Below, one piece after another: positions 38,075-58,295 of a stretch of 64,000 bases of DNA. Each line of letters starts with the position of its first letter. Positions within the stretch are counted from its first letter, which is position 1. The DNA comes from an uncultured Methylococcaceae bacterium (GTDB lineage: Bacteria > Pseudomonadota > Gammaproteobacteria > Methylococcales > Methylomonadaceae), in NCBI GenBank assembly GCA_903908165.1, contig CAIVQX010000173.1, forward strand, positions 8,528 to 72,527. The letters run 5' to 3'. The position numbers were made by a program, and so were the translations under genes. The notes under the pieces are model-generated. The model did not search any database. It was not told the origin of the DNA and saw only the letters and a list, made by a program, of their open reading frames with translations.

Positions 38075-38078
38075 TTGT

Positions 38079-38106
38079 TCCACAATATTTACACATTTCG
38101 TCCAAA
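38079..38106 (+). promoter_or_regulatory. Candidate OmpR-family tandem direct-repeat site upstream of mdtA
   Basis: TCCACA (38079) / TACACA (38090) / TCCAAA (38101) at an 11-bp period. Confidence 0.4.
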
Positions 38107-38317
38107 TTATTTGCTTCTTTCATATTTAAAGTAAATATAAAGAAAAAAATCAATATACTGAAATTCATAAGAAATCTATAAAAACAAAAATTTTATGCCT
38201 ATTACACTATTTTTTACTAGTTTATTTTTTAAACGACATGATCATCTCACTGCATTTTTGAAATGAAATATATTTCGTAACATAATGTAATTATGCGCTA
38301 TTTAACAAAGCCAAACG

Positions 38318-39571
38318 ATGGACAAATCAATAATGCTTGGACAATTAAAAAAAAGGATAAAAAAATATTTTTCCTGGAAAATAGGAAGTGCATTAGCTCT
38401 ATTATTGATATTAGCATTTTTTGTCATCAAATGGGTTAGCGAACCAACAGAAGGAGATAGTAAAGACTCTAAAAAATCAACCGAACCTCAGATTGCAGTT
38501 GTCGCAGAAGCAGCGACCCAAGGAGATTTCCCCGTATATCTAAACGCCTTAGGCACCATAACAGCACTACGTACAGTTACTGTAAAATCACGTGTTGATG
38601 GGGAACTTATCCATGTCGCTTTCAAAGAAGGTTCATTAGTAACTGCAGGTGATTTACTCGCCGAAATTGACCCACGAGCATTTCAGGTACAATTAATGCA
38701 GGCCGAAGGTCAGTTACGAAGAGACCAAGCATTATTAAAAAATGCGCAATTGGATCTAGTTCGTTACAAAACACTACTAGAACAAGATTCTATTGCTGCC
38801 CAACAAACACATACTCAACAAGCTGTGGTAGAACAACATCAAGGAACTGTTGAAATTGATCGCGGCCTTGTTGCGGATGCTAAACTCCAACTGAGTTATG
38901 CAAAAATCACAGCACCCATTACAGGAAGACTAGGATTGCGCTTAGTCGATCAGGGCAATATGGTGAAAGCTTCCGATACCAACGGACTGGCTGTTATTAC
39001 ACAAATCAGTCCAATAGCAGCTATTTTTACACTACCTGAAGATAATTTACCAGCCGTCATGCAACGATTTAAATCTGGTGAAACCCTATCAGTTGAAGCC
39101 TATGACCGTGGAGGCAACAACAAGATTGCTAAAGGACAACTATTAGCCGTCGACAACCAAATTGATACAACCACAGGAACTGTAAAGCTAAAAGCTCAGT
39201 TTACTAATGAAGACAATGTTTTATTTTCAAATCAATTTGTTAATATCAAAATTAAAATGGATACACTCAACTCTGTAACGATTATTCCCACCTCGGCTAT
39301 TCAAAGAGGAACAATTGGTTCATTTGTTTATGTCGTAAAAGATGATCATACCGTAAAGTTACAAACAGTAAGTTTGGGGCCTATTGAGGGTGAAAAAACT
39401 GCCGTATTAAAAGGGCTTAACGCTAATGAATTAGTTGTGGTAGATGGTGCAGACAAACTTCGTGATAAGGTGAAAGTTAAACTGATTACCCATGGGTCGA
39501 CATCTTCTGGTGGAACACCGACACTTACTGACAAGCCACTCAATAATAATTCATCAAATAAGAAAAAATGA
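38318..39571 (+). CDS. mdtA: RND membrane fusion protein MdtA
   Basis: TVTVKSRVDG, ITAPITGRLGLRLVD.GN, DNQIDTTTGTVKLKA, LFSNQFVN. Confidence 0.92.
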   Translation: MDKSIMLGQLKKRIKKYFSWKIGSALALLLILAFFVIKWVSEPTEGDSKDSKKSTEPQIAVVAEAATQGDFPVYLNALGTITALRTVTVKSRVDGELIHVAFKEGSLVTAGDLLAEIDPRAFQVQLMQAEGQLRRDQALLKNAQLDLVRYKTLLEQDSIAAQQTHTQQAVVEQHQGTVEIDRGLVADAKLQLSYAKITAPITGRLGLRLVDQGNMVKASDTNGLAVITQISPIAAIFTLPEDNLPAVMQRFKSGETLSVEAYDRGGNNKIAKGQLLAVDNQIDTTTGTVKLKAQFTNEDNVLFSNQFVNIKIKMDTLNSVTIIPTSAIQRGTIGSFVYVVKDDHTVKLQTVSLGPIEGEKTAVLKGLNANELVVVDGADKLRDKVKVKLITHGSTSSGGTPTLTDKPLNNNSSNKKK

Positions 39572-39627
39572 GTATTATTTGAACGTTCTCTTAAATTATC
39601 TTTAGCTCCGACCAAGATACCAAGATC

Positions 39628-42600: not shown

Positions 42601-42723
42601 GTCGGCGGCTTAATCCTGAGCCAAATACTTACTCTGTTCACAACTCCAGTTATTTATCTATATTTCAATAAACTAGAGCGTAAGCTCAAAGGGACTCTTG
42701 AGATTGATCAGGATTTTCTGTGA
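39628..42723 (+). CDS. mdtB: RND permease MdtB
   Basis: [55 protein letters not shown]. Confidence 0.92.
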
Positions 42724-45700
42724 ATTTATCAGCGTATTTTATCTATCGTCCAATCGCCACCTCGCTCCTAACACTGGCAATCAGTTTAGCGGGATTAATC
42801 GCCTTTTTTCAATTACCTATCGCACCACTCCCTCAAGTTGATTTTCCAACTATTTCTGTTCAAGCTTCCTTGCCAGGGGCAAGTCCGGAAATAATGAGTT
42901 CTTCAGTAGCAACTCCATTAGAACGTGAACTTGGACATATAGCAGGCATTTCAGAAATGACTTCTGCAAGCTCTATGGGCAGTACCAATATTATGTTGCA
43001 ATTTGATATTGATCGCGACATTGACGGTGCTGCCCGAGATGTGCAAGCTGCGATTAATGCAGCAAACAACTTGTTACCAGGTAATTTGCCTAATCGCCCA
43101 AGCTATAGGAAAATTAACCCAGCAGATTCACCCATTATGATTCTTGCTTTGACATCAGAAACTATGTCACGTGGTCAACTTTATGATGCAGCCTCAACAA
43201 TTCTTTCGCAAAAAATATCACAAGTTCAAGGGACTGGGCAAGTTACTGTAGGTGGCAGTGCACTACCTGCAATAAGAATTCAACTTAATCCAGTCGCTTT
43301 GGCCAAATATGGTATTGGCTTTGATGAAGTGAGATCTACTATTGCGGCGAGTAATATCAATCGACCTAAAGGAACAATTGAAAATACAACTCAACAATTA
43401 CCAATTTACGCCAACGATCAAGCTAAAACTGCTAGTGAATATTTACCACTCATAGTCACCTATAAAAATGGCGCAGCCATACACTTATCGGACATAGGAC
43501 AGGCTCTAGACTCTGTAGAAGACCTAAGATCAGCCGGACTCAAAGACAACCAACCCGCTATTTTATTAATCATAAATAAACAAGCCGGCGCTAATATCAT
43601 AGAAACAGTTGATAAAATTAAATCACTGTTTCCACAATTACAGGCATCTATTCCTAGTGCCTGTAAACTATCAATGGTTTTGGATAGATCCATAACCATT
43701 CGCGCCTCACTTCATGAAGTTGAACGCAGTCTTTTAATTGCTATAGGATTGGTGATCCTTATAGTTTTTTTATTTCTACGAGACCTTCGCTCCTCTATTA
43801 TTCCCATCATCACTATACCTGTATCCTTACTAGGCACTTTTGGTGTAATGTATTTATGCAACTACAGTTTGGATAATTTATCATTAATGGCACTGATTAT
43901 TGCCACTGGTTTTGTTGTTGATGATGCAATTGTTGTACTTGAAAATACATTAAGGCATTTAGAGCATGGAAACTCACCACGTGAAGCCGCTTTAAAAGGT
44001 GCTAGTGAAGTTGGCTTTACAGTATTAACTATAAGCTTATCGCTTATCGCTGTTTTTATCCCCATTTTATTAATGGGGGGAATCGTGGGGCGTCTTTTTC
44101 AGGAATTCGCAGTCGTACTCTCAACTGCCGTTCTTATTTCTTTAGTCATCTCACTGACTACTACACCAATGCTTTGCGCACTGTGGTTAAAACCCTTAAA
44201 AACAAAAACACCCAATCATCTTTACTATTTTGCTGAACGATATACCAATCATTTACTGACTGGCTATGAACGCACACTTCGATGGGCTTTACGTAACGGT
44301 TTAATAGTAATGTTGTTATTATTGTGTACGATAGGCTTAAATATCTACCTCTATACAATAGTACCAAAGGGTTTCTTCCCTATTCAGGATACAGGAAGAC
44401 TTTCAGGAACCATTCAGGCAGACCAGAGCATATCATCGCAAGCCATGCAAAAAAAACTGGCTGATTTTGTATCAATATTGCACCAAGATCCCGAAATTGA
44501 AACTGTTATTGGTTTTACTGGGGGGCAACGCAGCACGAATAGTGGACAAATGTTTGCAACACTTAAACCCTTAGAAGAAAGACATTTAAGCGTTGATAAA
44601 CTGATGTCACGACTCAGAAAAAAACTTGAGAATGAACCAGGAGCTAAGCTCATATTACAGTCACCCCAGGATTTGAGAATCGGAGCACGTGGTTCTTCTG
44701 CTTTATTTGAATATTCCCTACAGGCAGATAATTTAGAAGAACTTCGTATTTGGGTTCCTCAAATAGTCAAAGCCTTGTCACATCGTCATGAATTAGTAGA
44801 TGTAAATACCAACCAGCAAGATCATGGACAACAAATTTCACTCCAGATTGATAGAGACCTTACCAGCAGGCTTGGACTCAGTCAGTCGCTTATTAATTCC
44901 ACACTCAACAATGCCTTTGGACAAAGACAGATTTCTCTAATTTACAATGATCTCAACCAATATCGTATCATTATGGAAGTCTCTCCAGAATTTTCACAAA
45001 GTGCTGAAACATTAAAAAATATGTATATCAATATCCCACAAACCCTGCCATTAAACTCTGCGGGACAAATACCGTTTTCAACCTTTGTCACTTACACAAC
45101 AAACAACACTCCATTATCTGTCAACCATCAAAGTCAGTTTCCTGCTGGAACTATCTCATTCAATCTTAAACCTGGCACATCCTTATCTACAGCAAGCCAA
45201 GCACTTAAAGAAACAATGGACAATCTTGGTGTACCTTCATCCATACACGGCAGCTTCCAAGGAACTGCGAAAGCGTTTGAAGAGTCCTTGAAAAATCAAC
45301 CTTGGCTAATTCTAGCTGCTTTGGTGTCAATTTATATTGTCCTTGGTATTTTATATGAAAGCTATATCCATCCTTTGACCATTATTTCCACTTTACCATC
45401 TGCAGGCATTGGTGCAATTCTGGCACTGCTTATTTGCAAAACTGAATTTAGCATCATTGCAACGATTGGCGTTATTTTATTGATCGGTATCGTAAAAAAG
45501 AACGCTATTATGATGATAGATTTTGCCTTAAATGCTGAACGTACAATGTCTATGAGTCCAAAAGATGCAATTTTCAATGCTTGTTTGATGCGTTTTCGTC
45601 CCATTATGATGACTACTTTTGCGGCCCTTCTTGCCGCATTACCGCTTGCACTTGGATCAGGTTACGGATCTGAATTACGACGACCTTTGGGCATAGCAAT

Positions 45701-45848
45701 AGTCGGTGGTCTTTTATTTAGCCAGGTTCTAACTTTATATTCAACTCCGGTTATATATCTTTATCTAGATCGTTTTCAGACTTGGTGTCGGCGCAAACTT
45801 CTGCGAAACACATCGACACCCTTACCGAATCCGACAAATCTGCTTTGA
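42720..45848 (+). CDS. mdtC: RND permease MdtC
   Basis: GTG start overlapping the mdtB stop; [33 protein letters not shown], second permease of an mdtABC-type operon. Confidence 0.92.
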
Positions 45849-45877
45849 GTACATTTCTCTGACATTCTGAATTATTT

Positions 45878-47356
45878 ATGATCACCTACTTAATAAGGTT
45901 AATTACTTTTCTCTACTTCATAATTGTTGGAGGTTGCAGCGTAGGGCCAGATTACAAAAAACCAAGCAATGCTTTTCCTAATACATTTAAAGAAATTAAA
46001 GGTTGGAAACAAGCTAATCCGCGTGACATTGAGCTTTCTGATAAATGGTGGGAGATATTTAAAGATCCGCGCCTGAATGCCCTTGAACAACAAATCAACA
46101 TTGGCAATCAATCAATCGCACAAGCAGAGGCACAATTCCGACAGTCACAGTCGATGGTACAAACTGCAACTGCTGCTTATTTCCCAACCGCTAATGCTTC
46201 TGCGAGTGCGAGCCGATTCAAGGCGGTAAGTGGAGAGACTAAAGCTGTAAGTGGCGTAAAATATTTATTCAATACTGTGTTAAGTGTCGCCTGGGAGCCA
46301 GACATATGGGGTAGTGTTCGCAGACAAGTTGAGTCCAGTAGAGCCAATGCACAAGCCAGTGCAGCGACTCTGCAGGCGTTACGTTTATCAACACAAGCAA
46401 CATTAGCTCAAGACTATTTTCTGCTAAGAGTATTTGACGCACAGATCAATCTTTTAAACGATACCGTTAAAACTTATCAAAAAACATTAACTATCACAGA
46501 GAACCGTTATGCCGTAGGTATGGCGGCCAAGTCTGAAATTGTCCAAGCTGAAACTCAACTCCAATCAGCACAAGCTCAAGCTATTAATATAGAAGTACAG
46601 CGAGCAAAAGTAGAACATGCTATAGCGATTTTAATTGGCAAAACTCCCGCAGAGATATCTATTCCTGTTGGTTCATTAAACACTTTTCTGCCAGCTATAC
46701 CCGTCAGTATACCGTCAGAACTATTAGAGCGAAGACCGGATATCGCAATCGCTGAAAGACAAGCCGCTGCAGCTAATGCACTTATTGGAGTTGCTAAAGC
46801 GGCTTATTTTCCAACACTAAATCTTGCCGCTAACAACGGTCAACAAAACAATAGTGTTTCAAACTTAATGAATTCGGCATCACGTTATTGGACCTTAGGT
46901 CCTGCTGCATTTGCAATTCCTCTTTTTGATGGCGGATTTCGGGGCGCTCAAATGCAACAAACTATTGACGCTTATGACGCATCGGTGGCAGCTTATCGCC
47001 AAGCGGTTCTAGTCAGTTTTCAAGAGGTCGAGGATAATCTAGCTGCTCTACGTATACTTGAGCAGGAAATGTTGGTTCAAAACAAGGCGGTTGAATCTGC
47101 CCAAAAAGCTGTCCTTCTAACAACTAACCAATATAAAGCCGGAACAATCAGTTATCTCAATGTAATGATCGATCAGGCGGCAGCGCTTGCGAATGAAAAA
47201 ACGGCCGTTGATCTTCAAGGTCAACGCCTTACTGCTGCCGTTCTTCTAATAAAAGCACTGGGTGGTGGTTGGAAATCGTCTGTTCTTCCGAGTGAAGAAG
47301 ACATAAGTGGTGAAATTAAATGGCTACAGTTTTTACCTATTCCGTTAAGTAAATAG
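45878..47356 (+). CDS. NodT/OprM-family efflux outer-membrane lipoprotein
   Basis: Lipobox VGGC, SVGPDY, WEPDIWG, LLERRPDI, LIKALGGGW. Confidence 0.92.
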   Translation: MITYLIRLITFLYFIIVGGCSVGPDYKKPSNAFPNTFKEIKGWKQANPRDIELSDKWWEIFKDPRLNALEQQINIGNQSIAQAEAQFRQSQSMVQTATAAYFPTANASASASRFKAVSGETKAVSGVKYLFNTVLSVAWEPDIWGSVRRQVESSRANAQASAATLQALRLSTQATLAQDYFLLRVFDAQINLLNDTVKTYQKTLTITENRYAVGMAAKSEIVQAETQLQSAQAQAINIEVQRAKVEHAIAILIGKTPAEISIPVGSLNTFLPAIPVSIPSELLERRPDIAIAERQAAAANALIGVAKAAYFPTLNLAANNGQQNNSVSNLMNSASRYWTLGPAAFAIPLFDGGFRGAQMQQTIDAYDASVAAYRQAVLVSFQEVEDNLAALRILEQEMLVQNKAVESAQKAVLLTTNQYKAGTISYLNVMIDQAAALANEKTAVDLQGQRLTAAVLLIKALGGGWKSSVLPSEEDISGEIKWLQFLPIPLSK

Positions 47357-50405: not shown

Positions 50406-52250
50406 TCAATACTGACTCAGATGCTGGAGTAAAATTCGTCTTATTTCTTCAATTGTTAATGGATATCCTTGTGCAGAATGCCCTGTCCTAACAATATATT
50501 CAGACTCGACGTTATCAATATGTGCACTACTGTATTCGACAACACCATCATTACCAGTCTTAATATCTTCACCAGGTAGTACCGCAATAATCGAATGACT
50601 TGTTACATCTGGTGCCAAAGGAGTCTCAACTAACACTTTCATCATTGGGTTTCCAATCGACATTCCATCAAGACTTGTAGGTAACTTATCACTTAAGCCT
50701 GGAGGCATATTTACCTGACCTACTAATTGCTTATACTTTGCTGCACCTCCTTTAACCAAATCAATAGGTGATGTTATTAAAAATCGGACAAATTTACGAA
50801 CCCAATCCTTGGTTAAAAAACTGCCGCGATGCGGGGTAGAAATATAAATAACTCGTTTTACAAAGGGTAATGGTTTGAAGAACAGCGCCTTACTCATGTT
50901 ATTTTTTATTAGCGGATCAATCTTGAGCGTTTCAAATGATTGATCACTAATCACGTGCCAAAATCGATCACTCGAATTAACCGCCATCAAATTAGTCAAT
51001 AATCCACCCTGACTGTGTCCTATTACCACCATACGAGACAATGCGGAGTCTTTGTGTTCAGGATCAAGTTGATCAATCATTTTAATTAACGTTTCCCGTA
51101 AAATAGCTGCCGAATGAACTATTGGTGCATCGCTGTTGTACTGATAAAACCAAAATTGATAACGTTTACGAAGCACTGGATCGCTTCGCAATGTGTTGAC
51201 CATCTCAGCCCAAGCGGTAGGACTGCTGATTGTCCCATGCACAAGAACCACAGGAATCCGGCCAGGTTGATAGGGTTGTATCATAAGCACATGATTTTCA
51301 ACATCAACTCCAGAAATAAAATTTTTTAGACCTGCTTTCCACAATTCTGGATCGTTCAAATGATATGCAAGCGGGGCTGTAGTATCCGATTGCAATGGTA
51401 CATGCTGACCATTAACTTCAACCTCACTATCATCATATGCTGAATATAGCTCCAGACTTGCAATCCCTCTTCCGGCTTGAAAATCACTTAAATTTCCAGT
51501 AATACGCAGAAATGCAGTGATAGGAATGGCACCTCCATTTGGAGCCTCACTGGTTTTATGCGCTACCCCGATAATTGGCACACCCAGTCCTGGCGTCCGG
51601 TTACGAACGGTAAAACCATAGATATCATAAGCATCCGCTGAATAGAAAGCTTCAAAATTACTAAGCTGCCAACCTAACTCATTTGTCTCTCTTGTAATTG
51701 TTAACGTCCCACCTGCCAGCTTTCGGATACCACCTGTAAGTGAAAGCCCATCACCGTTACTATCCTTAAAACCTTGCTCTAATCCTCGATTGTAGATTTC
51801 ACAAGCTTCTCGAAATTGATTATCATATGGACTGGGTAGTGGCTGATTACTCTCACCCAATAGATAGAAATAGGCGTAAACAGCTGACTGCAGAAAAAGG
51901 TCTTTTGCTTGCTCACTGGATTTTTGACTATTACCGTTTTCGGCTAATGACTCTGCATAGGCATAACTTGTTTCGGCCAATGCGAATAATAAATCTCGTC
52001 TTTGATCTAGTAATGCTATTTGGTATAAATTGCCAATAGCTAACTGTGGATTTTTGTCATATAAATCTAATAAATTAAACCGCTGTAATACTGCTTTGGT
52101 ATTATTACTCACCTTACCCTCGTCAGAGAGTGAGTTCATGTTTGCAATTTGATAAGACTCTTTTGGGCTAACCTTGGTAACTCCAACAGGAGCGGCACAT
52201 CCCACTAAAAAAAGTATTATTAGAGCAAATCTATACACCAAAATCACCAA
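50406..52250 (-). CDS. Alpha/beta-hydrolase (lipase/esterase-like) lipoprotein
   Basis: Lipobox LVGC, PVVLVHG, nucleophile elbow GHSQGG, STPHRGS, DGVVEYSSAH. Confidence 0.8.
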   Translation of the reverse strand: MVILVYRFALIILFLVGCAAPVGVTKVSPKESYQIANMNSLSDEGKVSNNTKAVLQRFNLLDLYDKNPQLAIGNLYQIALLDQRRDLLFALAETSYAYAESLAENGNSQKSSEQAKDLFLQSAVYAYFYLLGESNQPLPSPYDNQFREACEIYNRGLEQGFKDSNGDGLSLTGGIRKLAGGTLTITRETNELGWQLSNFEAFYSADAYDIYGFTVRNRTPGLGVPIIGVAHKTSEAPNGGAIPITAFLRITGNLSDFQAGRGIASLELYSAYDDSEVEVNGQHVPLQSDTTAPLAYHLNDPELWKAGLKNFISGVDVENHVLMIQPYQPGRIPVVLVHGTISSPTAWAEMVNTLRSDPVLRKRYQFWFYQYNSDAPIVHSAAILRETLIKMIDQLDPEHKDSALSRMVVIGHSQGGLLTNLMAVNSSDRFWHVISDQSFETLKIDPLIKNNMSKALFFKPLPFVKRVIYISTPHRGSFLTKDWVRKFVRFLITSPIDLVKGGAAKYKQLVGQVNMPPGLSDKLPTSLDGMSIGNPMMKVLVETPLAPDVTSHSIIAVLPGEDIKTGNDGVVEYSSAHIDNVESEYIVRTGHSAQGYPLTIEEIRRILLQHLSQY

Positions 52251-52366
52251 TGATAAATCGACTAATGGTAGAGGCGGGTATCTTATGTAAATTCATTTAT
52301 ATGAGACCAGATAAAATCATTTATTTTAGTGAGTTGTAGTAGTATTCTGCGTAGCTAAATAAAGCA

Positions 52367-53557
52367 TTGATCATTTTTAATAAAAAAATCAACCATCATA
52401 TGCCCCCTTTAAAAAACACCATAAAACATTTAAAACTAAACAAAGCAGATTACGAAATCATTGTACCTTTTTCTGTTTTTCTGATTATAACTTTTATAGT
52501 TATGGTATTGGTTCGAATGGAAATTTTTGATTCCGAAAAGTTAAAATCTAGTGATCAACTATTATCACCTCCTGTCATTGAAACTGATTTATCGAACACC
52601 TCTATTGAAATCGGCGCCTACATTGATAATATTTATATGCTATCAATTAGCAACAAAACCTTTGATGCCAATGGATCAATTTGGTTAACATGGCCACAAA
52701 AAGCAGAAGATTTTTTTCAAGCCCGAAATCTTACCCCGGATAAATGGCTTTATTTTGTTAATCAAATTGACAACTGGGATTTCAAATTAGAGCAAATTTA
52801 TGAGAAACCAATCAAACTCAAGAATGGACACTATTACCAAAGTTTCAGGTTTTCAGGTCATTTTTACATTAATGATATTCCGTTTTATAAGTTTCCATTC
52901 GAAACCTTAAAAATACCTCTTATCTTCGAACTCGCTGACTTTAGTAACATCAATAACGCTAATAACATTCATGATATGCGCTTAGTTCCCGATCGATCAT
53001 CAGGCATAGGTAGCTACATTGGCCTAACAGGTTACAATACAATTGCTTTTAATATATTTTCTAAAAAGCATATTTATAGCAATAACCTTGGTTCGCCAAT
53101 TGCGGATTCAAAACCTATAAGTACTTATCAAGCTGTATTCGAAACAACTTATAAACAATCCGTCAATGCAGCTCTATTAACCTATTTTTTACCCTTATTG
53201 ATTGTCATGGCACTAGTTCTTTTCTCCCCGATGCTATCATCATCACTTTGGGATGTTCGACTGAGCGTTCCACCAACTGCGTTACTCACCTTAATCTTTC
53301 TGCAACTAGGTTATAGAGAAAAACTCCCCGATATCCCTTATATAATTTTTATTGATATCGTTTACAACGTTTGTTATTTAGGTATTATATTGATTTTCGG
53401 ACTTTTTTTGTGGGGATCTAATAAAGTAAATCTAGCTCCAGAAGCTGAAAAAGCTCTTCTTATTGAGAAAATTGATTTGATGGATAAACGTTTCCAGCGA
53501 TATGTTGTCTTAGGACTAATTATCTTAATTACAGGGGAATGGATATCGTTTGCTTAA
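52367..53557 (+). CDS. Prokaryotic pentameric ligand-gated ion channel (Pro-loop; GLIC/ELIC-like)
   Basis: Beta-rich ECD (IGAYIDNI...TFDANGSIWLTW; FSGHF; FPFE), M1 FLPLLIV, M2 RLSVPPTALLTLIF, M2-M3 loop LPDIPY, M3 D, M4 at the C-terminus. Likelier start is ATG 52400. Confidence 0.78.
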   Translation: MIIFNKKINHHMPPLKNTIKHLKLNKADYEIIVPFSVFLIITFIVMVLVRMEIFDSEKLKSSDQLLSPPVIETDLSNTSIEIGAYIDNIYMLSISNKTFDANGSIWLTWPQKAEDFFQARNLTPDKWLYFVNQIDNWDFKLEQIYEKPIKLKNGHYYQSFRFSGHFYINDIPFYKFPFETLKIPLIFELADFSNINNANNIHDMRLVPDRSSGIGSYIGLTGYNTIAFNIFSKKHIYSNNLGSPIADSKPISTYQAVFETTYKQSVNAALLTYFLPLLIVMALVLFSPMLSSSLWDVRLSVPPTALLTLIFLQLGYREKLPDIPYIIFIDIVYNVCYLGIILIFGLFLWGSNKVNLAPEAEKALLIEKIDLMDKRFQRYVVLGLIILITGEWISFA

Positions 53558-53650: not shown

Positions 53651-54664
53651 TTATCTCAAGACACCAGTAGGGCAAGAATAATTATCCAATACTTCAACAT
53701 AATTGGCACGCTCATACTTGGCAGGATCAATAGCACGCTGTTGACTGATACTGCCTTTTAGCTGACTAATTGAATCATATTCATGCTCGACTAACCATTG
53801 CTCTAACTCAACCAGTATTTGAGTTAACCGTCCTAGACCCTGCTTAAGCAAGACACTACATAGATGCACGACATCAGCTCCGGCGAACAATGCTTTCAAT
53901 ACATCTTGTGTCTCATGAAAACCGCCCGTTACAGCTAATGAAAGATGGGTTCGACCATACAAAAGAGCGGCCCATCGAATACGTAACAACGTTTCAGACG
54001 AGGTTGACAACTCTAATCTTGGCAACACCTCTAGTGTTTCCAAATCAATATCAGGCTGATAGAACCGATTAAATAAAGCTACACCATTCGCTCCGGAGAC
54101 CTCAAGCTGTTTTACAAAATGAATAGGTGAGCTGAATTGGGAAGAAAGCTTCATGATAATTGGCAAGCTCACCTGACTTTTTAACACTTGTAATATATTT
54201 AGATAACGATTTTCAACGTCATTGCTACTTTCCTCAGCATTGGCAGCCACGTGATAGATATTAAGCTCCAAGGCATCAGCACCGGCTTGTTGTAGTTGTC
54301 TCCCATACTCTACCCAACCACTTATCGAAGTACCGTTCAAACTAGCAATAATAGGAATCGTAAGTGTTGACTTGAGTTTATGTAATTGCTCCAGATACTT
54401 GTCTTGATAGGTCTGAATATTAGCCGGCATGGGGTGAAACGAATCGGCTTCACCATGCCCGATAGATTGCTGATAAAAAAATCGTTGAATTTGTTGCTCT
54501 TCGGCTTCGATCTTTTCTTCAAATAGCGAATACATTATCAATGCTGATGCGCCCGCATCTTCCAAGCTTTTTGCAGTACTTAAGTTCTTACTCAATGGTG
54601 ATGCTGAAGGGACCAAAGGATTAGCTAACTTCAACCCCACGTATTGGGTCGTTAAATCAACCAT
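53651..54664 (-). CDS. Dihydroorotate-dehydrogenase-like flavoprotein (PFOR-associated)
   Basis: L.NPLVPSASPL, PIIASLNG, ADALELNIY, PIIMKLS, LFNRFYQPDID, AVTGG; 8-nt overlap with nifJ. Confidence 0.85.
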   Translation of the reverse strand: MVDLTTQYVGLKLANPLVPSASPLSKNLSTAKSLEDAGASALIMYSLFEEKIEAEEQQIQRFFYQQSIGHGEADSFHPMPANIQTYQDKYLEQLHKLKSTLTIPIIASLNGTSISGWVEYGRQLQQAGADALELNIYHVAANAEESSNDVENRYLNILQVLKSQVSLPIIMKLSSQFSSPIHFVKQLEVSGANGVALFNRFYQPDIDLETLEVLPRLELSTSSETLLRIRWAALLYGRTHLSLAVTGGFHETQDVLKALFAGADVVHLCSVLLKQGLGRLTQILVELEQWLVEHEYDSISQLKGSISQQRAIDPAKYERANYVEVLDNYSCPTGVLR

Positions 54665-57600
54665 TGTTGATCTCCTTTAAACTGTTGGCTTTTAGTTGAA
54701 CTTTCGCTTCTGATATATCAGTAGCTTCATTCCATTCCAACTCAGACAATTGTTTATAATAACGATATCGATTTTTTACATCTTGCTGAGCCTGTGCCAG
54801 AAAACGCTCAGCAGCTTCTGGATGTGTTTGCCACAGCATACTAAATCTTGTTTCAGTTTTGACGAAATCACGATAAGGAATCGACGGTTCTGCTGAATCT
54901 AGTTTCATCGGATTCTTTCCGGCTTTTGCCTTGCTTGGATCAAATCGAAATAATGGCCAATGTCCACTCTTAACTGCCAAATCTTGTTGCCTATGGTTAT
55001 TGGACAAATCCACTCCATGCGCAATACAAGGTGCGTAAGCGATGATGATAGATGGACCATCATGCGCCTCTGCCTCCAAAAAAGCATTAAGTGTTTGAGT
55101 GTCTTTACCGGCATAAGCAACATGTGCCACATACACATTACTGTAATCCATCGCTAACAAAGCCAAATCTTTTTTGGCAGTCGCTTTACCACCTGCAGAA
55201 AATTTTGCTACTGCACCTAAAGGAGTTGATTTTGAAGTTTGTCCTCCGGTATTGGAATAAACCTCAGTATCAAGAACCAAAATATTAACATTGCGGCCAG
55301 AAGCTAATACATGATCAACCCCTCCAAAACCAATATCATATGCCCATCCGTCACCACCGATAATCCAAACACTTTTTTTACTTAAACTGTCTGCTAAATT
55401 TAGTAAGGTTTGAGCGGATTGATCTATTAAAGATTCTAGTTTTTGCTTAAGAGAAATAATCCGTTCGCGCTGTTCATAAATACCAGCTTCATCAGACTGA
55501 TCGGCATTCAAGATAGCGTCAACTTGTTCCTCACCTAACTGGTCACGAAGTAAGATCAGTAACTCTTTGGCGTAATCATTTTGCTTATCCAATGCAATCC
55601 GCATTCCCAATCCAAACTCGGCATTATCTTCAAATAAAGAATTACTCCAAGCTGGGCCTCTACCTTCAGGATTCTTAGTCCATGGTGTTGTAGGTAGATT
55701 GCCCCCATAAATTGAAGAGCAGCCTGTTGCATTAGCAATCATCATTCGATCTCCAAATAATTGTGAAGCCAATTTGATATAAGGCGTTTCACCACAACCT
55801 ACGCAAGCACCAGAAAACTCAAACAATGGCTGCAAAACCATTGCACCTTTAATAGTATTAGTTTTCAATAATCGTCGATCATATTCAGGAATGGCTAAAA
55901 AGAACTCCCAATTATCTCGTTCTGCTTTCTGAAGTGGCGCCTGAGCTTGCATATTCAAAGCTTTGCGACTGACGTTAGATTTATCGCGAATCGGACAAAT
56001 ATCAACACAAAGTGTGCAGCCGGTGCAATCTTCGGGTGCCACTTGATAACTAATAGCCAAACCTGATGGAAAATCTTTACCCAGCATCGGAACACATTTA
56101 AAAGTTTCAGGTTTATCTTCTAAAACATCGGTAGAAAATATCTTACTGCGAATAACCGAATGTGGACAAACCATCACACACTTTCCGCATTGGGTACACA
56201 AATCAGTTTCCCAAACCGGAATTTCCAGCGCTAAATTGCGTTTCTCAAAAGCAGCCGTACCTGTTGGAAAAGTACCATCATTCGGCATAACACTCACTGG
56301 CAAGGCATCTCCTCTGCCTGCAATAATTTCACCAGTAACACGCCTAATAAAATTAAGTGAAGCATCAGTAATGCAAGAGCTAATATCAAACATGCTACTG
56401 ATCTTTGCAGGCAGTGGCACACTATATAAACTAGCCAACGCTTCATCAATGGCTTTGAAATTAAGCTCAACAATACGCTGACCTTTTTTTCCATAGGTCT
56501 TTTCAACGGCTTGTTTTATGGCAGCTACAGCATTTTTCTGGGGCAATACACCGGAAATTGCAAAAAAACAAGTTTGCATAATGGTATTAATACGCTTACC
56601 CATGCCACTTTTTTCAGCAACCGCATAAGCATCTATAATATAAAAACTAATATTTTTGGTTATCAATTGCTCTTGCATTTTAGCAGGTAGCGAATCCCAA
56701 ACTTGATCAACTGGCTCCGGTGTATTCAGTAAAAAAACCGCATTTTCGGCAGCATTGACTAGCATGTCGTAACGGGTCAGAAAAATAGTCTGATGACAGC
56801 CAATAAAATTGGCATCATTTTCAGCAATCAAATAAGTTGAATGAATTGGCCTAGAGCCAAAACGCAAATGCGAAACGGTAATGGCACCAGATTTTTTTGA
56901 ATCATAAACAAAATAACCTTGAGCATTTAAATCCGTTGCTTCACCAATGATTTTAATCGTGTTTTTATTGGCGCTAACCGTACCATCACTACCCAATCCG
57001 TAAAACATAGCCTGAAAAGTATCTCTATGAGCATCCGTACGATAGCTCGCATCCCACTCTAGACTGGTATATGTGACGTCATCATGAATGCCAATAGTAA
57101 ACTGATTTTTTGGTTGCAACTGATTCAACTCATCGAAAATCGTTTTAATCATCCCTGGAGTAAACTCTTTAGAAGACAGGCCATAACGACCACCAATCAC
57201 TTGTGGTAAGACTGAAAATCTGACCGAACCACTCATATAATCTTGAGCAAGAGCGCTTAAAACATCTTTATAGAGAGGCTCACCATCTGATCCAGGCTCT
57301 TTTGTGCGATCCAATACAGCGATTTTACGACAAGTCACTGGCAAAGCGGCAAGTAAACTGTCTGGATCAAATGGCCGATATAGTCGAACTTTAACTAAGC
57401 CTACCGACTCACCCTGACGATTGAGATAGTCAACTGTTTCAGCTACCGCCTCTGCGCCTGAACCCATGATTACAATGACACGTTCTGCAGTTACCGAACC
57501 CAAATACTCAAACAGATAATATGAGCGGCCTGTCAGTAATGAAAAACGATCCATTGCACTCTGGACTATTCTTGGCATCGCCTGATAAAAAGGATTAACC

Positions 57601-58295
57601 GTTTCCCTAGCTTGAAAATACACATCAGGATTTTGAGCTGTACCACGCAATACTGGTTTATCTGGCGTTAAGGCTCGTTTTCTGTGCGCAGATACCCACT
57701 CATCTTTAATCATTGCTCGCATTACAACATCATCAAATAGAGTAAGTTTACCTATTTCATGGGAAGTTCTAAAACCATCAAAAAAATGCATCACCGGAAT
57801 GCGACTTTCCAATGTCACAGCATGAGCAATCAAAGCAAAGTCCAAAACTTCTTGGGGAGAATTAGAACATAACATAGCAAAACCAGTCATTCTCGCTGAC
57901 ATAACATCACTATGATCACCAAAAATAGATAAACCCTGACAAGCCAAAGAACGTGCGGCAATATGAAATACAGTTGGGGTTAATTCACCAGCAATTTTAT
58001 ACATATTGGGTAACATTAACAACAGACCTTGGGATGCCGTAAAAGTAGTTGCCATTGAACCAGCCTGTAAGGCACCGTGAATGGCTCCAGCAACGCCAGC
58101 TTCACTTTGCATTTCAGTCACTTGTGGAACTGTACCCCATAAATTAAGCTGACCACGAGAGGACCATTCATCAGCCCACTCACCCATAGTTGACGATGGG
58201 GTTATTGGATAAATGGCGATAACTTCATTAAGTTTATGAGCAACCGTAGCAGCAGCCTGATTTCCATCAATTGTACATATTTTCTGAGTTTGCAT
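54657..58295 (-). CDS. nifJ: Pyruvate:ferredoxin (flavodoxin) oxidoreductase, homodimeric type
   Basis: IYPITPSS, EMQSEAGVAG, GLGSDGTV, two 4Fe-4S motifs (CTQCGKC...C, CTGCTLC...C), FSGACVGCGETPY, GGDGWAYDIG. Confidence 0.96.
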   Translation of the reverse strand: MQTQKICTIDGNQAAATVAHKLNEVIAIYPITPSSTMGEWADEWSSRGQLNLWGTVPQVTEMQSEAGVAGAIHGALQAGSMATTFTASQGLLLMLPNMYKIAGELTPTVFHIAARSLACQGLSIFGDHSDVMSARMTGFAMLCSNSPQEVLDFALIAHAVTLESRIPVMHFFDGFRTSHEIGKLTLFDDVVMRAMIKDEWVSAHRKRALTPDKPVLRGTAQNPDVYFQARETVNPFYQAMPRIVQSAMDRFSLLTGRSYYLFEYLGSVTAERVIVIMGSGAEAVAETVDYLNRQGESVGLVKVRLYRPFDPDSLLAALPVTCRKIAVLDRTKEPGSDGEPLYKDVLSALAQDYMSGSVRFSVLPQVIGGRYGLSSKEFTPGMIKTIFDELNQLQPKNQFTIGIHDDVTYTSLEWDASYRTDAHRDTFQAMFYGLGSDGTVSANKNTIKIIGEATDLNAQGYFVYDSKKSGAITVSHLRFGSRPIHSTYLIAENDANFIGCHQTIFLTRYDMLVNAAENAVFLLNTPEPVDQVWDSLPAKMQEQLITKNISFYIIDAYAVAEKSGMGKRINTIMQTCFFAISGVLPQKNAVAAIKQAVEKTYGKKGQRIVELNFKAIDEALASLYSVPLPAKISSMFDISSCITDASLNFIRRVTGEIIAGRGDALPVSVMPNDGTFPTGTAAFEKRNLALEIPVWETDLCTQCGKCVMVCPHSVIRSKIFSTDVLEDKPETFKCVPMLGKDFPSGLAISYQVAPEDCTGCTLCVDICPIRDKSNVSRKALNMQAQAPLQKAERDNWEFFLAIPEYDRRLLKTNTIKGAMVLQPLFEFSGACVGCGETPYIKLASQLFGDRMMIANATGCSSIYGGNLPTTPWTKNPEGRGPAWSNSLFEDNAEFGLGMRIALDKQNDYAKELLILLRDQLGEEQVDAILNADQSDEAGIYEQRERIISLKQKLESLIDQSAQTLLNLADSLSKKSVWIIGGDGWAYDIGFGGVDHVLASGRNVNILVLDTEVYSNTGGQTSKSTPLGAVAKFSAGGKATAKKDLALLAMDYSNVYVAHVAYAGKDTQTLNAFLEAEAHDGPSIIIAYAPCIAHGVDLSNNHRQQDLAVKSGHWPLFRFDPSKAKAGKNPMKLDSAEPSIPYRDFVKTETRFSMLWQTHPEAAERFLAQAQQDVKNRYRYYKQLSELEWNEATDISEAKVQLKANSLKEINNG

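What the first reader, a model, noticed from the sequence alone, without database searches (positions are those of the whole stretch)
52367..53557. Bacterial pentameric ligand-gated ion channel (Cys-loop/Pro-loop receptor homolog) with a double-proline M2 helix
Seen: an N-terminal membrane anchor, then a beta-rich domain with pLGIC hallmarks (beta1-beta2 IGAYIDNI...FDANGSIWLTW, FSGHF, Pro-loop FPFE), then four TM segments. By-eye alignment to ELIC M2 (R0'LQTSFTLML9'...L22'P23'RLPY) gives R0'LSVPPTALL9'TLIFLQLGYREKL22'P23'DIPY, with register conserved exactly. Established: pLGICs are patchily distributed in prokaryotes and natural ligands or roles are mostly unknown. Unusual here: Pro at both 4' and 5', a bulky Phe at pore-facing 13', Val at -1' where ELIC has Glu, and Gln in place of the usual pre-M1 Arg. 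Inference: a stand-alone chemosensory or pH-gated channel with atypical gating, possibly horizontally acquired. It is an isolated gene with no operon partner.
Basis: partly seen in the sequence, partly recalled or inferred. Interest (0 to 1): 0.78.

Follow-up and report, generated by a model that had tools for sequence, protein, structure and literature searches.

The report
Divergent bacterial pentameric ligand-gated ion channel
This gene from a freshwater methane-oxidising bacterium encodes a genuine but very divergent relative of the nicotinic/GABA receptor channel family, from an uncharacterised bacterial subfamily that standard domain models miss; it is a new member of a known kind, not a new kind of system.

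Summary
The ORF is real, but its start is probably ATG 52400 (385 aa), not TTG 52367. It is conserved and present in metatranscriptomes. It is a pLGIC homolog. The family profile hits 195 solved pLGIC chains (best E 1e-16). The AlphaFold2 model (pLDDT 89) matches sTeLIC, GLIC, ELIC and GlyR (Foldseek E ~1e-16, TM ~0.78). Pfam misses the whole family.

The "unusual" residues are hallmarks of a broad prokaryotic clade, not quirks of this gene: P4' and F13' are invariant in 70/70 close relatives. The canonical Pro-loop Asp / pre-M1 Arg pair is lost together across the subfamily; here it is E179 plus K263-Q264.

Recent horizontal acquisition is not supported: GC3 is normal and the locus is syntenic with Methylobacter psychrophilus. 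The gene stands alone here. In a sister clade it is translationally coupled to an orphan UrtA-like binding protein, which gives a ligand lead that transfers poorly to this clade.

A Methylococcus capsulatus pLGIC homolog, probably the ortholog, was listed in 2004. The ligand, the pentamer and conduction remain untested.

The parts
   Evidence: ORF. The 385-aa form is the one called in 22 metagenome contigs, and homolog N-termini agree. pLGIC homology comes.
52442..52516 (+). N-terminal helix 'TM0' (KADYEIIVPFSVFLIITFIVMVLVR), a probable uncleaved signal anchor
   Evidence: AF2 helix at residues 15-39, pLDDT 85-93. It contains a 19-residue uncharged run with no AxA-type site, and a comparable 15-25-residue segment is present in nearly all family members. 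That it stays uncleaved is an inference.
52553..52567 (+). Conserved linker motif DQLLS (family pattern D[QR]-hydrophobic-hydrophobic-[SP]) between TM0 and beta1
   Evidence: Conserved across methanotroph clades. It forms a short beta strand in the AF2 model, residues 53-55.
52601..53158 (+). Periplasmic ligand-binding-type beta-sandwich domain (ECD), including beta1-beta2 (52604-52693), FSGHF (52850-52864) and loop C (about 53075-53119)
   Evidence: AF2 strands. Profile alignment to the ELIC and GLIC ECDs. Family-invariant G, W, N, P, F and G positions.
52892..52903 (+). Pro-loop tip FPFE (equivalent to the Cys-loop F/YPxD motif; E replaces the canonical D)
   Evidence: P and F are 70/70. The position after FPF is Q36/E18/D9/H5/N2. 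Superfamily conservation figures are from PMC4795631 Table 1.
53150..53161 (+). Pre-M1 linker YKQS: Q264 (396 numbering) sits in the canonical Arg column, with K263 adjacent
   Evidence: HMMER alignment to GLIC chimeras. Family column is Q19/K19/S15/P6/T3/R2. Asp and Arg co-vary across the wider clade, OR 8.9.
53162..53221 (+). M1 helix with the invariant kink proline (LPLL)
   Evidence: AF2 helix 255-274. P is 70/70.
53240..53317 (+). M2 pore helix SSLWDVRLSVPPTALLTLIFLQLGYR: D-2' (53252), R0', P4'P5' (53270-53275), L9' (53285), F13' (53297), L16' (53306)
   Evidence: AF2 helix 281-306. Ungapped alignment to GlyR and GABA-A M2. Column counts.
53324..53329 (+). L22'-P23' at the start of the M2-M3 loop (LPDIPY)
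   Evidence: P is 70/70 and the Y four residues later is 70/70. It aligns to LPKV(S/A)Y and LPKTPY of solved channels.
53348..53434 (+). M3 helix
   Evidence: AF2 helix 317-345. Invariant D, F, F and W positions.
53441..53551 (+). M4 helix preceded by a roughly 20-residue cytoplasmic helical extension carrying the conserved ID..FQ motif
   Evidence: AF2 helix 348-384. D362 and Q366 are nearly invariant. M4 aligns with GlyR M4 in 4x5t.
52251..52399 (.). AT-rich divergent intergenic region shared with the upstream hydrolase gene; presumed promoter region, with no recognisable Shine-Dalgarno before the ATG
   Evidence: Sequence. No sigma-70 consensus hit falls inside this region. Its function is inferred only.
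50406..52250 (-). Context only: divergently transcribed 614-aa alpha/beta-hydrolase lipoprotein (lipobox LVGC, GHSQGG); also next to the pLGIC gene in two other methanotroph genera
   Evidence: Weak Pfam hits to PGAP1, DUF676 and Abhydrolase_6. The same divergent pairing occurs in L007 and L008, with 55% identity. No functional link has been shown.

Best explanation
The gene encodes one subunit of a pentameric ligand-gated ion channel (pLGIC, Pro-loop receptor), presumably a homopentamer, in the inner membrane of a freshwater Methylococcales methanotroph.

Architecture: an N-terminal signal-anchor helix (TM0), a roughly 30-residue linker, a periplasmic beta-sandwich sensor domain, and four TM helices with M2 lining the pore.

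Proposed working:
- A periplasmic chemical stimulus (a small molecule, or pH) acts on the ECD.
- The signal passes through the Pro-loop / pre-M1 / M2-M3 interface. In this subfamily that interface uses E179 and K263-Q264 in place of the canonical Asp-Arg salt bridge.
- The signal opens a hydrophobic gate made of L9', F13' and, in this protein, L16'.
- The ring of Asp at -2' next to Arg 0' most likely makes the pore cation-selective, as Glu -2' does in GLIC.
- The invariant Pro at 4' (doubled at 5' here) lies between the 9'/13' gate and the -2'/2' constriction. It probably acts as a helix hinge or kink.

Shown: homology, fold, residue conservation, presence in metatranscriptomes, and the stand-alone, vertically inherited locus.

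Inferred: pentamer, conduction, selectivity, hinge role, uncleaved TM0.

Unknown: the ligand. A small nitrogenous solute is my guess, drawn from the UrtA-linked sister clade. It is weak, because the ECD surfaces of the two clades differ.

Sub-confidences: pLGIC homolog 0.97; functional gated channel about 0.75; cation-selective about 0.65; any specific ligand class below 0.25.
For: Homology:
- Single-sequence phmmer against the PDB hits the GLIC-GlyR chimera at E 9e-6 over residues 66-370, plus about 100 other pLGIC chains.
- The family profile hits 195 distinct pLGIC chains, best 1.3e-16, with GLIC at 1e-10 to 1e-12 and ELIC near 1e-10.

Fold:
- AF2 pLDDT 89.1, pTM 0.83, with the beta-rich ECD plus M1 to M4.
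- The Foldseek top 50 are all pLGICs; sTeLIC 6fl9 has E 1.3e-16 and TMt 0.79.

Signature residues kept: Pro-loop P and F, M1 P, L9' (69/70) and P23' (70/70).

Pore stripe in the family: 2' G/A/S, 6' T, 9' L, 13' F, 16' Q, 20' A/E/D.

Selectivity: -2' is D54/E16. Counted back from P23' in the alignment, GLIC has E at -2'.

F13' compatibility: GLIC with an engineered 13' Phe (A237F) has been crystallised, including a complex with Cs+ (entries 3lsv and 4ila).

Real, used gene:
- 94 homolog clusters.
- 174 clusters at 50% identity with E<=1e-30.
- The identical protein occurs in many lake metagenomes in the same neighbourhood.
- Metatranscriptome contigs from two studies cover all or most of the gene at word depth similar to its neighbours.
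Against: - Pfam PF02931 and PF02932 do not detect it. Across the family, 0/70 hit PF02931 and 6/70 give sub-threshold PF02932 hits. NCBIfam LIC gives only E 0.075.
- The Pro-loop Asp and pre-M1 Arg, 93-94% conserved in the superfamily (PMC4795631), are replaced, so ECD-TMD coupling may differ or be impaired.
- Prolines at 4' and 5' plus a ring of Phe at 13' and Leu at 16' could give a very narrow or rarely opening pore.
- The M1-M2 segment has the length of the anion-selective GlyR and GABA-A receptors, not of GLIC or ELIC (counted).
- No multimer model, electrophysiology or ligand data exist.
- Metatranscriptome contigs can contain DNA carry-over (caveat stated).
Confidence: 0.7

Rival explanations
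1. It is the same fold and the same pentameric channel, but anion-selective. Arg 0' and a GlyR-length M1-M2 loop would dominate over Asp -2'.
For: The distance from the M1 proline to P23' is 43 residues, identical to GlyR alpha1 and GABA-A alpha1. GLIC has 41 (counted from alignments). R0' is 69/70. The best PDB sequence hits are chimeras carrying anionic-receptor transmembrane domains.
Against: The anionic signature P-2' A-1' is absent. Instead -2' is always D or E (70/70; 114/135 in the wider clade), as in cation-selective GLIC. 13' is Phe, not the Thr of GlyR and GABA-A.
Confidence: 0.15
2. The channel is not gated directly by a free small molecule. It is gated by a ligand-loaded periplasmic binding protein or another partner encoded elsewhere in the genome, as the UrtA-coupled sister clade suggests.
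For: In 20 of 80 related loci a UrtA-like SBP gene is adjacent. It is on the same strand in 19 of them and overlaps by 4 bp in 8. It occurs in two different gene orders across three phyla, without urtBCDE. The SBP passes the curated cutoff: TIGR03407 500.4 bits against 492.75, and Peripla_BP_5 at 9e-137. Tasneem et al. reported PBP fusions and PBP neighbours for other bacterial pLGICs (PMC549065).
Against: The UrtA-linked loci form one clade separate from the methanotroph clade. That clade has its own invariant ECD residues that the window clade lacks, for example Y81, K88, S164-R165, D168-D169, D176, K200-Y201 and W244. No UrtA-like gene lies in the 64-kb window, and no conserved SBP neighbour appears in about 35 methanotroph loci.
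Confidence: 0.12
3. It is a pH-gated channel, like GLIC (acid) or sTeLIC (alkaline), used for pH or membrane-potential homeostasis rather than for sensing a solute.
For: The closest structural matches are the two pH-gated bacterial channels sTeLIC and GLIC. The gene stands alone with no sensor partner. A conserved His precedes loop C (H235 in all four clades) and another is frequent in FSGHF.
Against: Foldseek scores for ELIC, GlyR and GABA-A are practically the same, so structural rank says nothing about the stimulus. A conserved aromatic and polar set around the loop B/C/D positions (W106, Y223, H235, Y237, F166-Y167) fits a ligand pocket equally well.
Confidence: 0.2
4. It is a degenerate, non-conducting pLGIC relic, a structural or receptor-only protein. 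Loss of the Asp-Arg coupling pair and the proline-broken, Phe-plugged M2 would reflect loss of channel function.
For: The two most conserved coupling residues are replaced. Prolines sit inside M2, and there are three consecutive hydrophobic rings at 9', 13' and 16'.
Against: The supposedly damaging residues are themselves under strong conservation: P4' 70/70, F13' 70/70, acidic -2' 70/70, L9' 69/70 and P23' 70/70. They persist across more than 130 clusters at 50% identity. That is the pattern of a working pore, not of decay. The gene is intact, widespread and found in metatranscriptomes.
Confidence: 0.05
5. The gene is recent horizontally acquired cargo in this genome.
For: The gene's GC of 0.332 is the low extreme of the window's long ORFs, 0.385 +/- 0.023. 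The phyletic distribution of the family is patchy across phyla.
Against: GC3 of 0.288 equals the window mean of 0.298 +/- 0.026, so the low GC comes from amino-acid composition. The pLGIC / DHOD-like / PFOR order is shared with Methylobacter psychrophilus, and the hydrolase / pLGIC pair is shared with Methylotetracoccus and Methylolobus. No mobile-element genes or tRNA flank it.
Confidence: 0.05

Closest known systems
GLIC (Gloeobacter violaceus proton-gated cation channel)
   Same: - Same ECD beta-sandwich plus 4-TM fold (Foldseek E ~1e-15, TMt ~0.78).
- Profile E of 1e-10 to 1e-12.
- No Cys-loop cysteines.
- Pro-loop FPF, M1 Pro and LP at 22'-23'.
- Acidic ring at -2'.
- Short bacterial-type M3-M4 connection.
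   Different: - About 16% identity.
- GLIC has a cleaved signal peptide rather than a long TM0 anchor (from general knowledge).
- GLIC keeps D122 and R192, whereas this protein has E plus K-Q.
- GLIC has V4'V5', I9' and A13', against P4'P5', L9' and F13' here.
- The M1-M2 segment is 2 residues shorter in GLIC.
ELIC (Erwinia/Dickeya amine-gated channel) and sTeLIC (alkaline-pH-gated channel)
   Same: Same fold: sTeLIC is the top Foldseek hit at E 1e-16, and the ELIC ECD chimera is the top profile hit at 1.3e-16. All are stand-alone bacterial homopentamer-type genes. R at 0' and L at 9' as in ELIC (the ELIC M2 sequence is from memory and was not re-derived here).
   Different: No Pro in M2 of these channels. 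Hydrophobic 13'F and 16'L here, against 16'F in ELIC (memory). The WxP loop-A motif of ELIC and GLIC is absent, being aligned to a gap. The ligand is unknown.
Methylococcus capsulatus pLGIC listed by Tasneem, Iyer, Jakobsson & Aravind 2004 (PMC549065); probably MCA0752 (P0039)
   Same: MCA0752 belongs to the same subfamily and the same methanotroph clade. It is 45% identical over 95% of the length and carries the same M2 motif. This shows that a methanotroph pLGIC was predicted 20 years ago.
   Different: I could not confirm from the text that 'Mcap' in that paper is MCA0752. The figure with identifiers is not held. The paper does not discuss P4', F13', TM0 or the lost Asp-Arg pair, and there has been no experimental follow-up.
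Bacterial pLGICs fused to or neighbouring periplasmic binding proteins (Tasneem 2004), and DeCLIC with an N-terminal domain
   Same: The sister clade of this subfamily is translationally coupled to a PBP type-I (UrtA-like) protein. This is the same design logic as the PBP-I fusions described in alpha-proteobacteria.
   Different: The window gene has no fused or adjacent sensor domain. The UrtA-type partner is a separate gene rather than a fusion. It was not found described in the searchable literature.
Anionic Cys-loop receptors (GlyR alpha1, GABA-A alpha1/beta3)
   Same: These give the best-scoring TMD alignments. M1 to M3 align without gaps, with identical M1-Pro to P23' spacing, R0', T6', L9', T10' and LP(K/D)(V/I)xY.
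   Different: No Cys-loop disulfide, no large M3-M4 domain, D instead of P at -2', P instead of G at 4', and F instead of T at 13'.

Membership tests
pLGIC / Pro-loop receptor superfamily | Extracellular beta-sandwich followed by a four-helix transmembrane domain (overall fold) | tested here: met
   AF2 pLDDT 89.1 and pTM 0.83. 1101 PDB matches at E<=1e-3. The top 50 are all pLGICs, with TMt up to 0.79.
pLGIC / Pro-loop receptor superfamily | Significant sequence-profile similarity to solved pLGICs over ECD and TMD | tested here: met
   Family profile against the PDB: 195 pLGIC sequences at E<=1e-3, best 1.3e-16, covering profile positions 53-373. The single sequence gives 9e-6.
pLGIC / Pro-loop receptor superfamily | Absolutely conserved proline at the tip of the beta6-beta7 (Cys/Pro) loop, within the F/YPxD motif | tested here: met
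   FPFE is present. P is 70/70 and F 70/70, and P is 135/135 in the wider clade. Jaiteh 2016 reports 100% conservation.
pLGIC / Pro-loop receptor superfamily | Asp of F/YPxD (93% conserved) paired with the pre-M1 Arg (94% conserved) | tested here: not met
   The window has E179 and Q264, with K263 adjacent. Family: D 9/70 and R 2/70. The two co-vary in the wider clade, OR 8.9, p 2e-7, not corrected for phylogeny. This is a frequent feature, not a universal one, so it does not exclude membership.
pLGIC / Pro-loop receptor superfamily | M1 kink proline, 9' leucine in M2 and M2-M3 loop proline (23') | tested here: met
   M1 P 70/70. L9' 69/70 and P23' 70/70.
pLGIC / Pro-loop receptor superfamily | Pfam PF02931 (ligand-binding domain) and PF02932 (transmembrane region) above the gathering score | tested here: not met
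   No hit at E<=10 for the window protein. Across the family, 0/70 hit PF02931 and 6/70 hit PF02932, all sub-threshold with best E 0.03. This is a limit of model sensitivity, and it is contradicted by the profile-to-PDB and fold evidence.
pLGIC / Pro-loop receptor superfamily | Assembly as a pentamer with M2 lining a central pore | not testable with these tools
   Only monomer prediction is available, and no coordinates are returned. The pore-stripe periodicity of conserved residues at 2', 6', 9', 13', 16' and 20' is consistent with a central pore, but that is indirect.
pLGIC / Pro-loop receptor superfamily | Agonist- or pH-gated ion conduction | not testable with these tools
   This needs electrophysiology or flux assays.
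Cation-selective pLGIC subgroup (GLIC-like) | Ring of acidic residues at the cytoplasmic pore mouth (-1' or -2') | tested here: met
   -2' is D54/E16 of 70. GLIC has E at -2' when counted back from P23' in the alignment.
Anion-selective pLGIC subgroup (GlyR/GABA-A-like) | P-2' A-1' R0' motif | tested here: not met
   The window has D-2' V-1' R0'. No Pro occurs at -2' in any of the 70. Only the loop length and R0' match.
SBP-coupled pLGIC (UrtA-linked clade of this subfamily) | Adjacent, co-oriented Peripla_BP_5 / UrtA-like gene | tested here: not met
   There is no UrtA-like sequence anywhere in the window (tblastn best E 0.56). The window clade is separate from the UrtA-linked clade.

The most novel reading that the evidence does not exclude
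The subfamily represents a distinct solution to pLGIC gating.

It has abandoned the near-universal Pro-loop Asp / pre-M1 Arg coupling salt bridge. It has also fixed a proline hinge at M2 4' (PP in this protein), between the hydrophobic 9'/13' gate and the -2'/2' constriction. The lower and upper gates could therefore move semi-independently, by analogy with the P-x-P hinge of Kv S6. The channel is additionally tethered by a fifth transmembrane helix (TM0).

Its sister clade would be the first pLGIC that works with a separate UrtA-type binding protein. That would make channel-based sensing of urea or small amides, and more broadly the natural role of bacterial pLGICs, directly testable.
Probability: 0.25. 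Interest if true: 0.7.

Novelty: new member of a known kind. Interest (0 to 1): 0.42.

Why it matters
Only four prokaryotic pLGICs (GLIC, ELIC, sTeLIC, DeCLIC) have been characterised, and they underpin much of the mechanistic work on human neurotransmitter receptors. The natural ligands and cellular roles of bacterial pLGICs remain largely unknown.

This gene belongs to a sizeable clade: at least 174 clusters at 50% identity with E<=1e-30. The clade is widespread in lake methanotrophs, picocyanobacteria, Halieaceae and Myxococcota, and Pfam-based annotation misses it.

Three features make it a potentially informative natural experiment on gating and ECD-TMD coupling:
- the invariant M2 proline;
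- the invariant 13' Phe;
- the coupled loss of the Asp-Arg pair.

The UrtA-coupled sister clade offers a rare, concrete ligand hypothesis for a bacterial pLGIC.

For the window gene itself the result is more modest. It is a well-supported annotation of a 'hypothetical protein' as a probable cation-selective ligand-gated channel of an abundant freshwater methanotroph.

Tried and rejected
- **Direct domain searches:** Pfam and NCBIfam scans of the protein gave nothing usable. Scanning all 70 family members did not help either. Homology had to be established by profile-to-PDB search and by fold.
- **Promoter and terminator scans:** no sigma-70-like site in the divergent intergenic region and no intrinsic terminator. 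The 3' intergenic RNA fold is no better than shuffles, z = 0.14.
- **Transcript start from metatranscriptome contigs:** contigs break or run through the intergenic region inconsistently between runs, so no TSS can be called.
- **Ligand inference from gene neighbourhood in the methanotroph clade:** neighbours are unrelated housekeeping genes that differ from sub-clade to sub-clade (read from the translations; not profile-checked). The only recurrent neighbour is the divergent alpha/beta-hydrolase, in 3 loci.
- **Transferring the UrtA lead to the window clade:** weakened by the separate clade position and by different invariant ECD residues.
- **HGT by composition:** rejected, because GC3 is normal.
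- **Second paralog or UrtA gene in the window:** none.
- **Literature searches:** nothing relevant for UrtA + pLGIC, pLGIC + methanotroph, GLIC A237F, or PBP-operon pLGICs.
- **Population variants:** 2 synonymous and 5 conservative nonsynonymous changes are too few to say anything about selection.
- **Pentamer modelling and pore geometry:** not possible. Only monomer prediction is offered, no coordinates are returned, and concatenated inputs are not accepted.
Full report
**1. The observation**

The window contains a 396-codon ORF at 52367..53557(+), starting at TTG.

The TTG start is probably wrong.
- The identical database protein is 385 aa and begins MPPLKN, at ATG 52400.
- Gene callers used that start on all 22 contigs read.
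- No homolog has the 11 extra residues.
- Neither start has a recognisable Shine-Dalgarno sequence.

The gene lies between a divergently transcribed 614-aa gene (50406..52250, minus strand) and a convergent DHOD-like gene (53651..54664, minus strand). In this genome it is therefore monocistronic.

**2. Is it a pLGIC?**

Direct domain searches fail.
- Pfam gives no hit to PF02931 or PF02932, even at E<=10.
- NCBIfam's LIC model reaches only E = 0.075.
- Of 70 family members scanned, none hits PF02931. Only 6 give sub-threshold hits to PF02932, best E 0.03.

Homology is nevertheless firm.
- The single sequence matches the GLIC-GlyR chimera 4x5t at E = 9e-6 over residues 66-370. About a hundred other pLGIC chains match through M1-M3.
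- A profile of 70 relatives (A1) matches 195 distinct solved pLGIC sequences. The best is 1.3e-16, GLIC scores 1e-10 to 1e-12 and ELIC about 1e-10. The matches run from beta1 to M3 or M4.
- An AlphaFold2 model built on that alignment is confident: pLDDT 89.1, pTM 0.83. It has an N-terminal helix (residues 15-39, 385-aa numbering), a beta-rich domain (68-253) and helices at 255-274, 281-306, 317-345 and 348-384.
- Foldseek against the PDB returns only pLGICs in the top 50. They include sTeLIC, GLIC, ELIC, GlyR and GABA-A receptors, at E ~1e-16 to 1e-15 with target-normalised TM up to 0.79.

The pentamer part of that criterion could not be tested.

**3. The M2 register and the 'unusual' residues**

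HMMER aligns M1 through the M2-M3 loop to the GlyR alpha1 and GABA-A alpha1/beta3 transmembrane domains without gaps. This fixes the register as W-3' D-2' V-1' R0' L S V P4' P5' T6' A L L9' T L I F13' L Q L16' G Y R E20' K L22' P23'.

Across 70 relatives:

| Position | Count |
|---|---|
| P4' | 70/70 |
| F13' | 70/70 |
| L9' | 69/70 |
| R0' | 69/70 |
| P23' | 70/70 |
| -1' | V or I in 67/70 |
| -2' | always acidic (D54, E16) |
| P5' | 44/70 (otherwise S or T) |
| 16' | Q in 63/70 |

The window's L16' is a minority state, shared with a few close relatives.

In the 150 best representatives of an exhaustive search of 1.84 billion proteins, P4' is kept in 120/136 aligned sequences, F13' in 113/134 and an acidic -2' in 114/135. 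P5' is kept in only 27.

So these features are not idiosyncrasies of this gene. They are the conserved signature of a broad prokaryotic clade.

Counting back from P23' in the GLIC sequence printed, GLIC carries Glu at -2'. An acidic ring at that depth next to a basic 0' is the arrangement seen in a cation-selective bacterial channel. Against this, the spacing from the M1 proline to P23' (43 residues) equals that of the anion-selective GlyR and GABA-A receptors. It is two longer than in GLIC. I therefore rate cation selectivity at about 0.65.

None of the aligned solved channels has proline at 4' or 5'. An engineered 13' Phe in GLIC (A237F) has been crystallised, including a complex with Cs+ (entries 3lsv and 4ila listed). 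A Phe ring at 13' is therefore compatible with a GLIC-type pore.

**4. The ECD-TMD interface**

Jaiteh et al. 2016 (PMC4795631, Table 1) list the most conserved superfamily positions:

| Position | Conservation | State here |
|---|---|---|
| Pro-loop F/Y | 71% F, 25% Y | kept (F) |
| Pro-loop P | 100% | kept |
| Pro-loop D | 93% | Glu in the window; family Q36/E18/D9/H5/N2 |
| beta9 W | 71% | replaced by Tyr, which that table lists as an 11% substitution |
| Pre-M1 R | 94% | Gln264 in the window; family Q19/K19/S15/P6/T3/R2 |
| M1 P | 77% | kept |
| M2-M3 P | 88% | kept |

In the wider clade the Asp and Arg are retained or lost together (odds ratio 8.9, Fisher p = 2e-7, not corrected for phylogeny). 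That is what would be expected if they form a functional pair.

In the window's own sub-clade the combination is Glu plus Lys-Gln, in 7 of 70 sequences. A one-residue-shifted Glu-Lys pair may substitute for the canonical bridge; this is inference.

The WxP loop-A motif of GLIC and ELIC is also absent, being aligned to a gap.

**5. The N-terminus**

Nearly every family member has a 15-25-residue uncharged segment about 10-30 residues from the N-terminus. It is followed by a linker of roughly 30 residues with a conserved D[QR]-hydrophobic-hydrophobic-[SP] motif. In the model that motif forms a short strand.

In the window protein the hydrophobic run is 19 residues and is followed by VLVRME, which has no small-x-small signal-peptidase site. 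An uncleaved signal anchor (TM0), and hence a five-TM subunit, is likely but unproven. Some cyanobacterial members do have ALA-type sites and may be cleaved.

**6. Organism, distribution, expression**

Relatives are concentrated in Methylococcales.
- Methylobacter psychrophilus, 67% identity.
- M. capsulatus Bath MCA0752, 45%.
- M. geothermalis, whose protein NCBI names 'ligand-gated ion channel'.

They also occur in picocyanobacteria (including marine Synechococcus WH7803 and WH8017), Halieaceae and Myxococcota MAGs. Several genomes carry two paralogs.

The exact protein occurs in many lake, freshwater and estuary metagenomes, always in the same neighbourhood. Metatranscriptome assemblies from at least two studies contain the gene. 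In two of the four runs laid, contigs cover it end to end; the other two leave short gaps. Word depth is comparable with the neighbours. The usual caveat applies: contigs are not strand-resolved and DNA carry-over is possible.

The family comprises 174 clusters at 50% identity with E<=1e-30. It grades into 2,737 hits at E<=1e-3.

**7. Horizontal transfer**

The gene's GC (0.332) is low for the window (long ORFs 0.385 +/- 0.023). Its GC3 (0.288) equals the window mean (0.298 +/- 0.026). The low GC therefore reflects the Ile, Leu, Phe, Asn and Lys-rich composition of a membrane protein.

Synteny is conserved.
- The order pLGIC / DHOD-like / PFOR is shared with M. psychrophilus, at 67%, 80% and 88% protein identity respectively.
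- The divergent hydrolase / pLGIC pair is shared with Methylotetracoccus oryzae and Methylolobus aquaticus.
- No tRNA or mobile-element genes flank it.

Recent acquisition is not supported. Ancient inter-phylum transfer of the family is plausible from its patchy distribution, as Tasneem et al. argued for bacterial pLGICs in general.

**8. Neighbourhoods and the ligand question**

Neighbours in about 35 methanotroph loci vary by sub-clade and look like unrelated housekeeping genes. That reading comes from the translations and was not profile-checked. The one exception is the recurrent divergent alpha/beta-hydrolase, in 3 loci.

In 20 of 80 related loci a gene of about 440 aa is adjacent to the pLGIC gene. 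It is on the same strand in 19 of them and overlaps by 4 bp in 8.
- Order SBP then channel: Halieaceae, Pseudomonadales and Myxococcota.
- Order channel then SBP: Synechococcus.
- Its representative is Peripla_BP_5 at E = 9e-137. It passes NCBIfam's curated cutoff for UrtA, 500.4 against 492.75 bits.
- No urtBCDE genes accompany it.

This is a conserved, rearranged and translationally coupled pair spanning three phyla. It points to functional coupling between an orphan urea/amide-type binding protein and the channel. I found nothing on this in the searchable literature. Tasneem et al. did describe PBP-I fusions and PBP-II neighbours for other bacterial pLGICs.

The UrtA-linked loci form one clade, separate from the methanotroph clade, in a rough neighbour-joining tree. 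That clade also has many of its own invariant ECD residues, which the window clade lacks. The lead therefore transfers poorly to the window protein. No UrtA-like gene lies in the window.

All four clades share a small set of conserved aromatic and polar ECD residues near the loop B/C/D positions: W106, F166-Y167, Y223, H235, Y237 and G242 in 396 numbering. This is consistent with a conserved pocket but does not identify a ligand.

**9. Mechanism proposed**

Shown:
- pLGIC homology and fold;
- conservation of pore and interface residues;
- presence in metatranscriptomes;
- a stand-alone, vertically inherited locus.

Inferred:
- a homopentamer in the inner membrane, with the ECD in the periplasm;
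- a hydrophobic gate at L9', F13' and L16';
- a cation filter at D-2';
- a hinge or kink at P4'P5', between the upper gate and the lower constriction;
- ECD-TMD coupling through E179 and K263 instead of Asp-Arg;
- an uncleaved TM0.

Unknown: the stimulus. I consider a direct small-molecule agonist most likely. pH gating (0.2) and partner-protein gating (0.12) are the alternatives.

**10. Comparison with what is known, and verdict**

The protein is a member of the pLGIC superfamily, on the evidence of fold, profile and the single universally conserved proline. It departs in two frequent but non-universal signature residues.

A Methylococcus capsulatus homolog and cyanobacterial homologs were already listed as predicted ligand-gated channels in 2004 (PMC549065). 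I could not verify that the 2004 entry is MCA0752. No member of this subfamily has been characterised; the studied bacterial models remain GLIC, ELIC, sTeLIC and DeCLIC.

The finding is therefore a correct and careful identification of a new member of a known kind. It sits in an understudied, Pfam-invisible subfamily with a distinctive pore helix.

It is moderately interesting to channel biophysicists as a possible new model system. The UrtA-coupled sister clade is the most novel thing that turned up. The window gene itself is neither surprising in kind nor horizontally acquired, and the 'atypical gating' remains a hypothesis.

Noticed in passing
Related loci L036, L037, L040, L044, L048, L051-L053, L056-L060, L065, L067, L069, L075, L077, L080 (gene next to the pLGIC match; L046 convergent): An orphan UrtA-like periplasmic binding protein gene sits beside the pLGIC gene in Halieaceae, Myxococcota and Synechococcus. 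It passes the NCBIfam UrtA cutoff and lacks urtBCDE. The two genes are often translationally coupled by a 4-bp overlap and occur in two gene orders. This SBP-channel pairing appears to be undescribed.
   Followed up: partly
window 50406..52250 (-): A 614-aa alpha/beta-hydrolase with a lipoprotein signal (lipobox LVGC) and a GHSQGG nucleophile elbow. Pfam hits are only weak (PGAP1/DUF676) and NCBIfam gives none. It is divergently paired with the pLGIC gene here and in Methylotetracoccus (L007) and Methylolobus (L008). A periplasmic esterase next to a ligand-gated channel is suggestive, but the link is untested.
   Followed up: partly
window 9478..12255 (+): A 925-aa protein fusing an N-terminal SAM-dependent methyltransferase domain (residues ~38-200) to a complete polyphosphate kinase 1 (all four PPK domains). 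This is an unusual architecture.
   Followed up: no
window 30783..34553 (+): A 1256-aa protein fusing an AI-2E/PerM-family transporter domain (residues 17-345) to a full P-type cation-transporting ATPase. This is an unusual fusion.
   Followed up: no
window 14290..18776 (+): A DabA (747.9 bits) plus DabB-like (Proton_antipo_M) gene pair with overlapping stop and start. This is a probable energy-coupled inorganic-carbon uptake system in a methanotroph.
   Followed up: no
window 35949..47356 (+): A HAMP-HisKA sensor kinase and OmpR-type regulator, followed by an RND efflux cluster (MFP, two tandem pump genes of 1031 and 1042 aa, and an outer-membrane factor). The layout resembles MdtABC. RND pump genes also lie beside the UrtA-pLGIC pair in Myxococcota loci L058, L059 and L067, which is probably coincidence.
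   Followed up: no
Loci L037, L040 and one further Halieaceae locus (probably L036), upstream of the UrtA-like gene: An 818-aa DAO + FAO_M + GCV_T protein (dimethylglycine/sarcosine dehydrogenase architecture) precedes the UrtA-like/pLGIC pair. It hints at a methylated-amine or nitrogen-metabolism context in that clade.
   Followed up: partly
Loci L013/L014 vs L025, L026, L020, L069, L075: Several genomes carry two paralogs of this pLGIC subfamily, sometimes in tandem (L020, L026, L069) or within 5 kb (L075). This raises the possibility of heteromeric assemblies in bacteria.
   Followed up: no
window 53651..58295 (-): A DHOD-like flavoprotein gene overlaps the stop of a 1212-aa pyruvate:ferredoxin oxidoreductase (NifJ-type) gene by 8 bp. 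The pair is conserved in Methylobacter psychrophilus at 80% and 88% identity.
   Followed up: no
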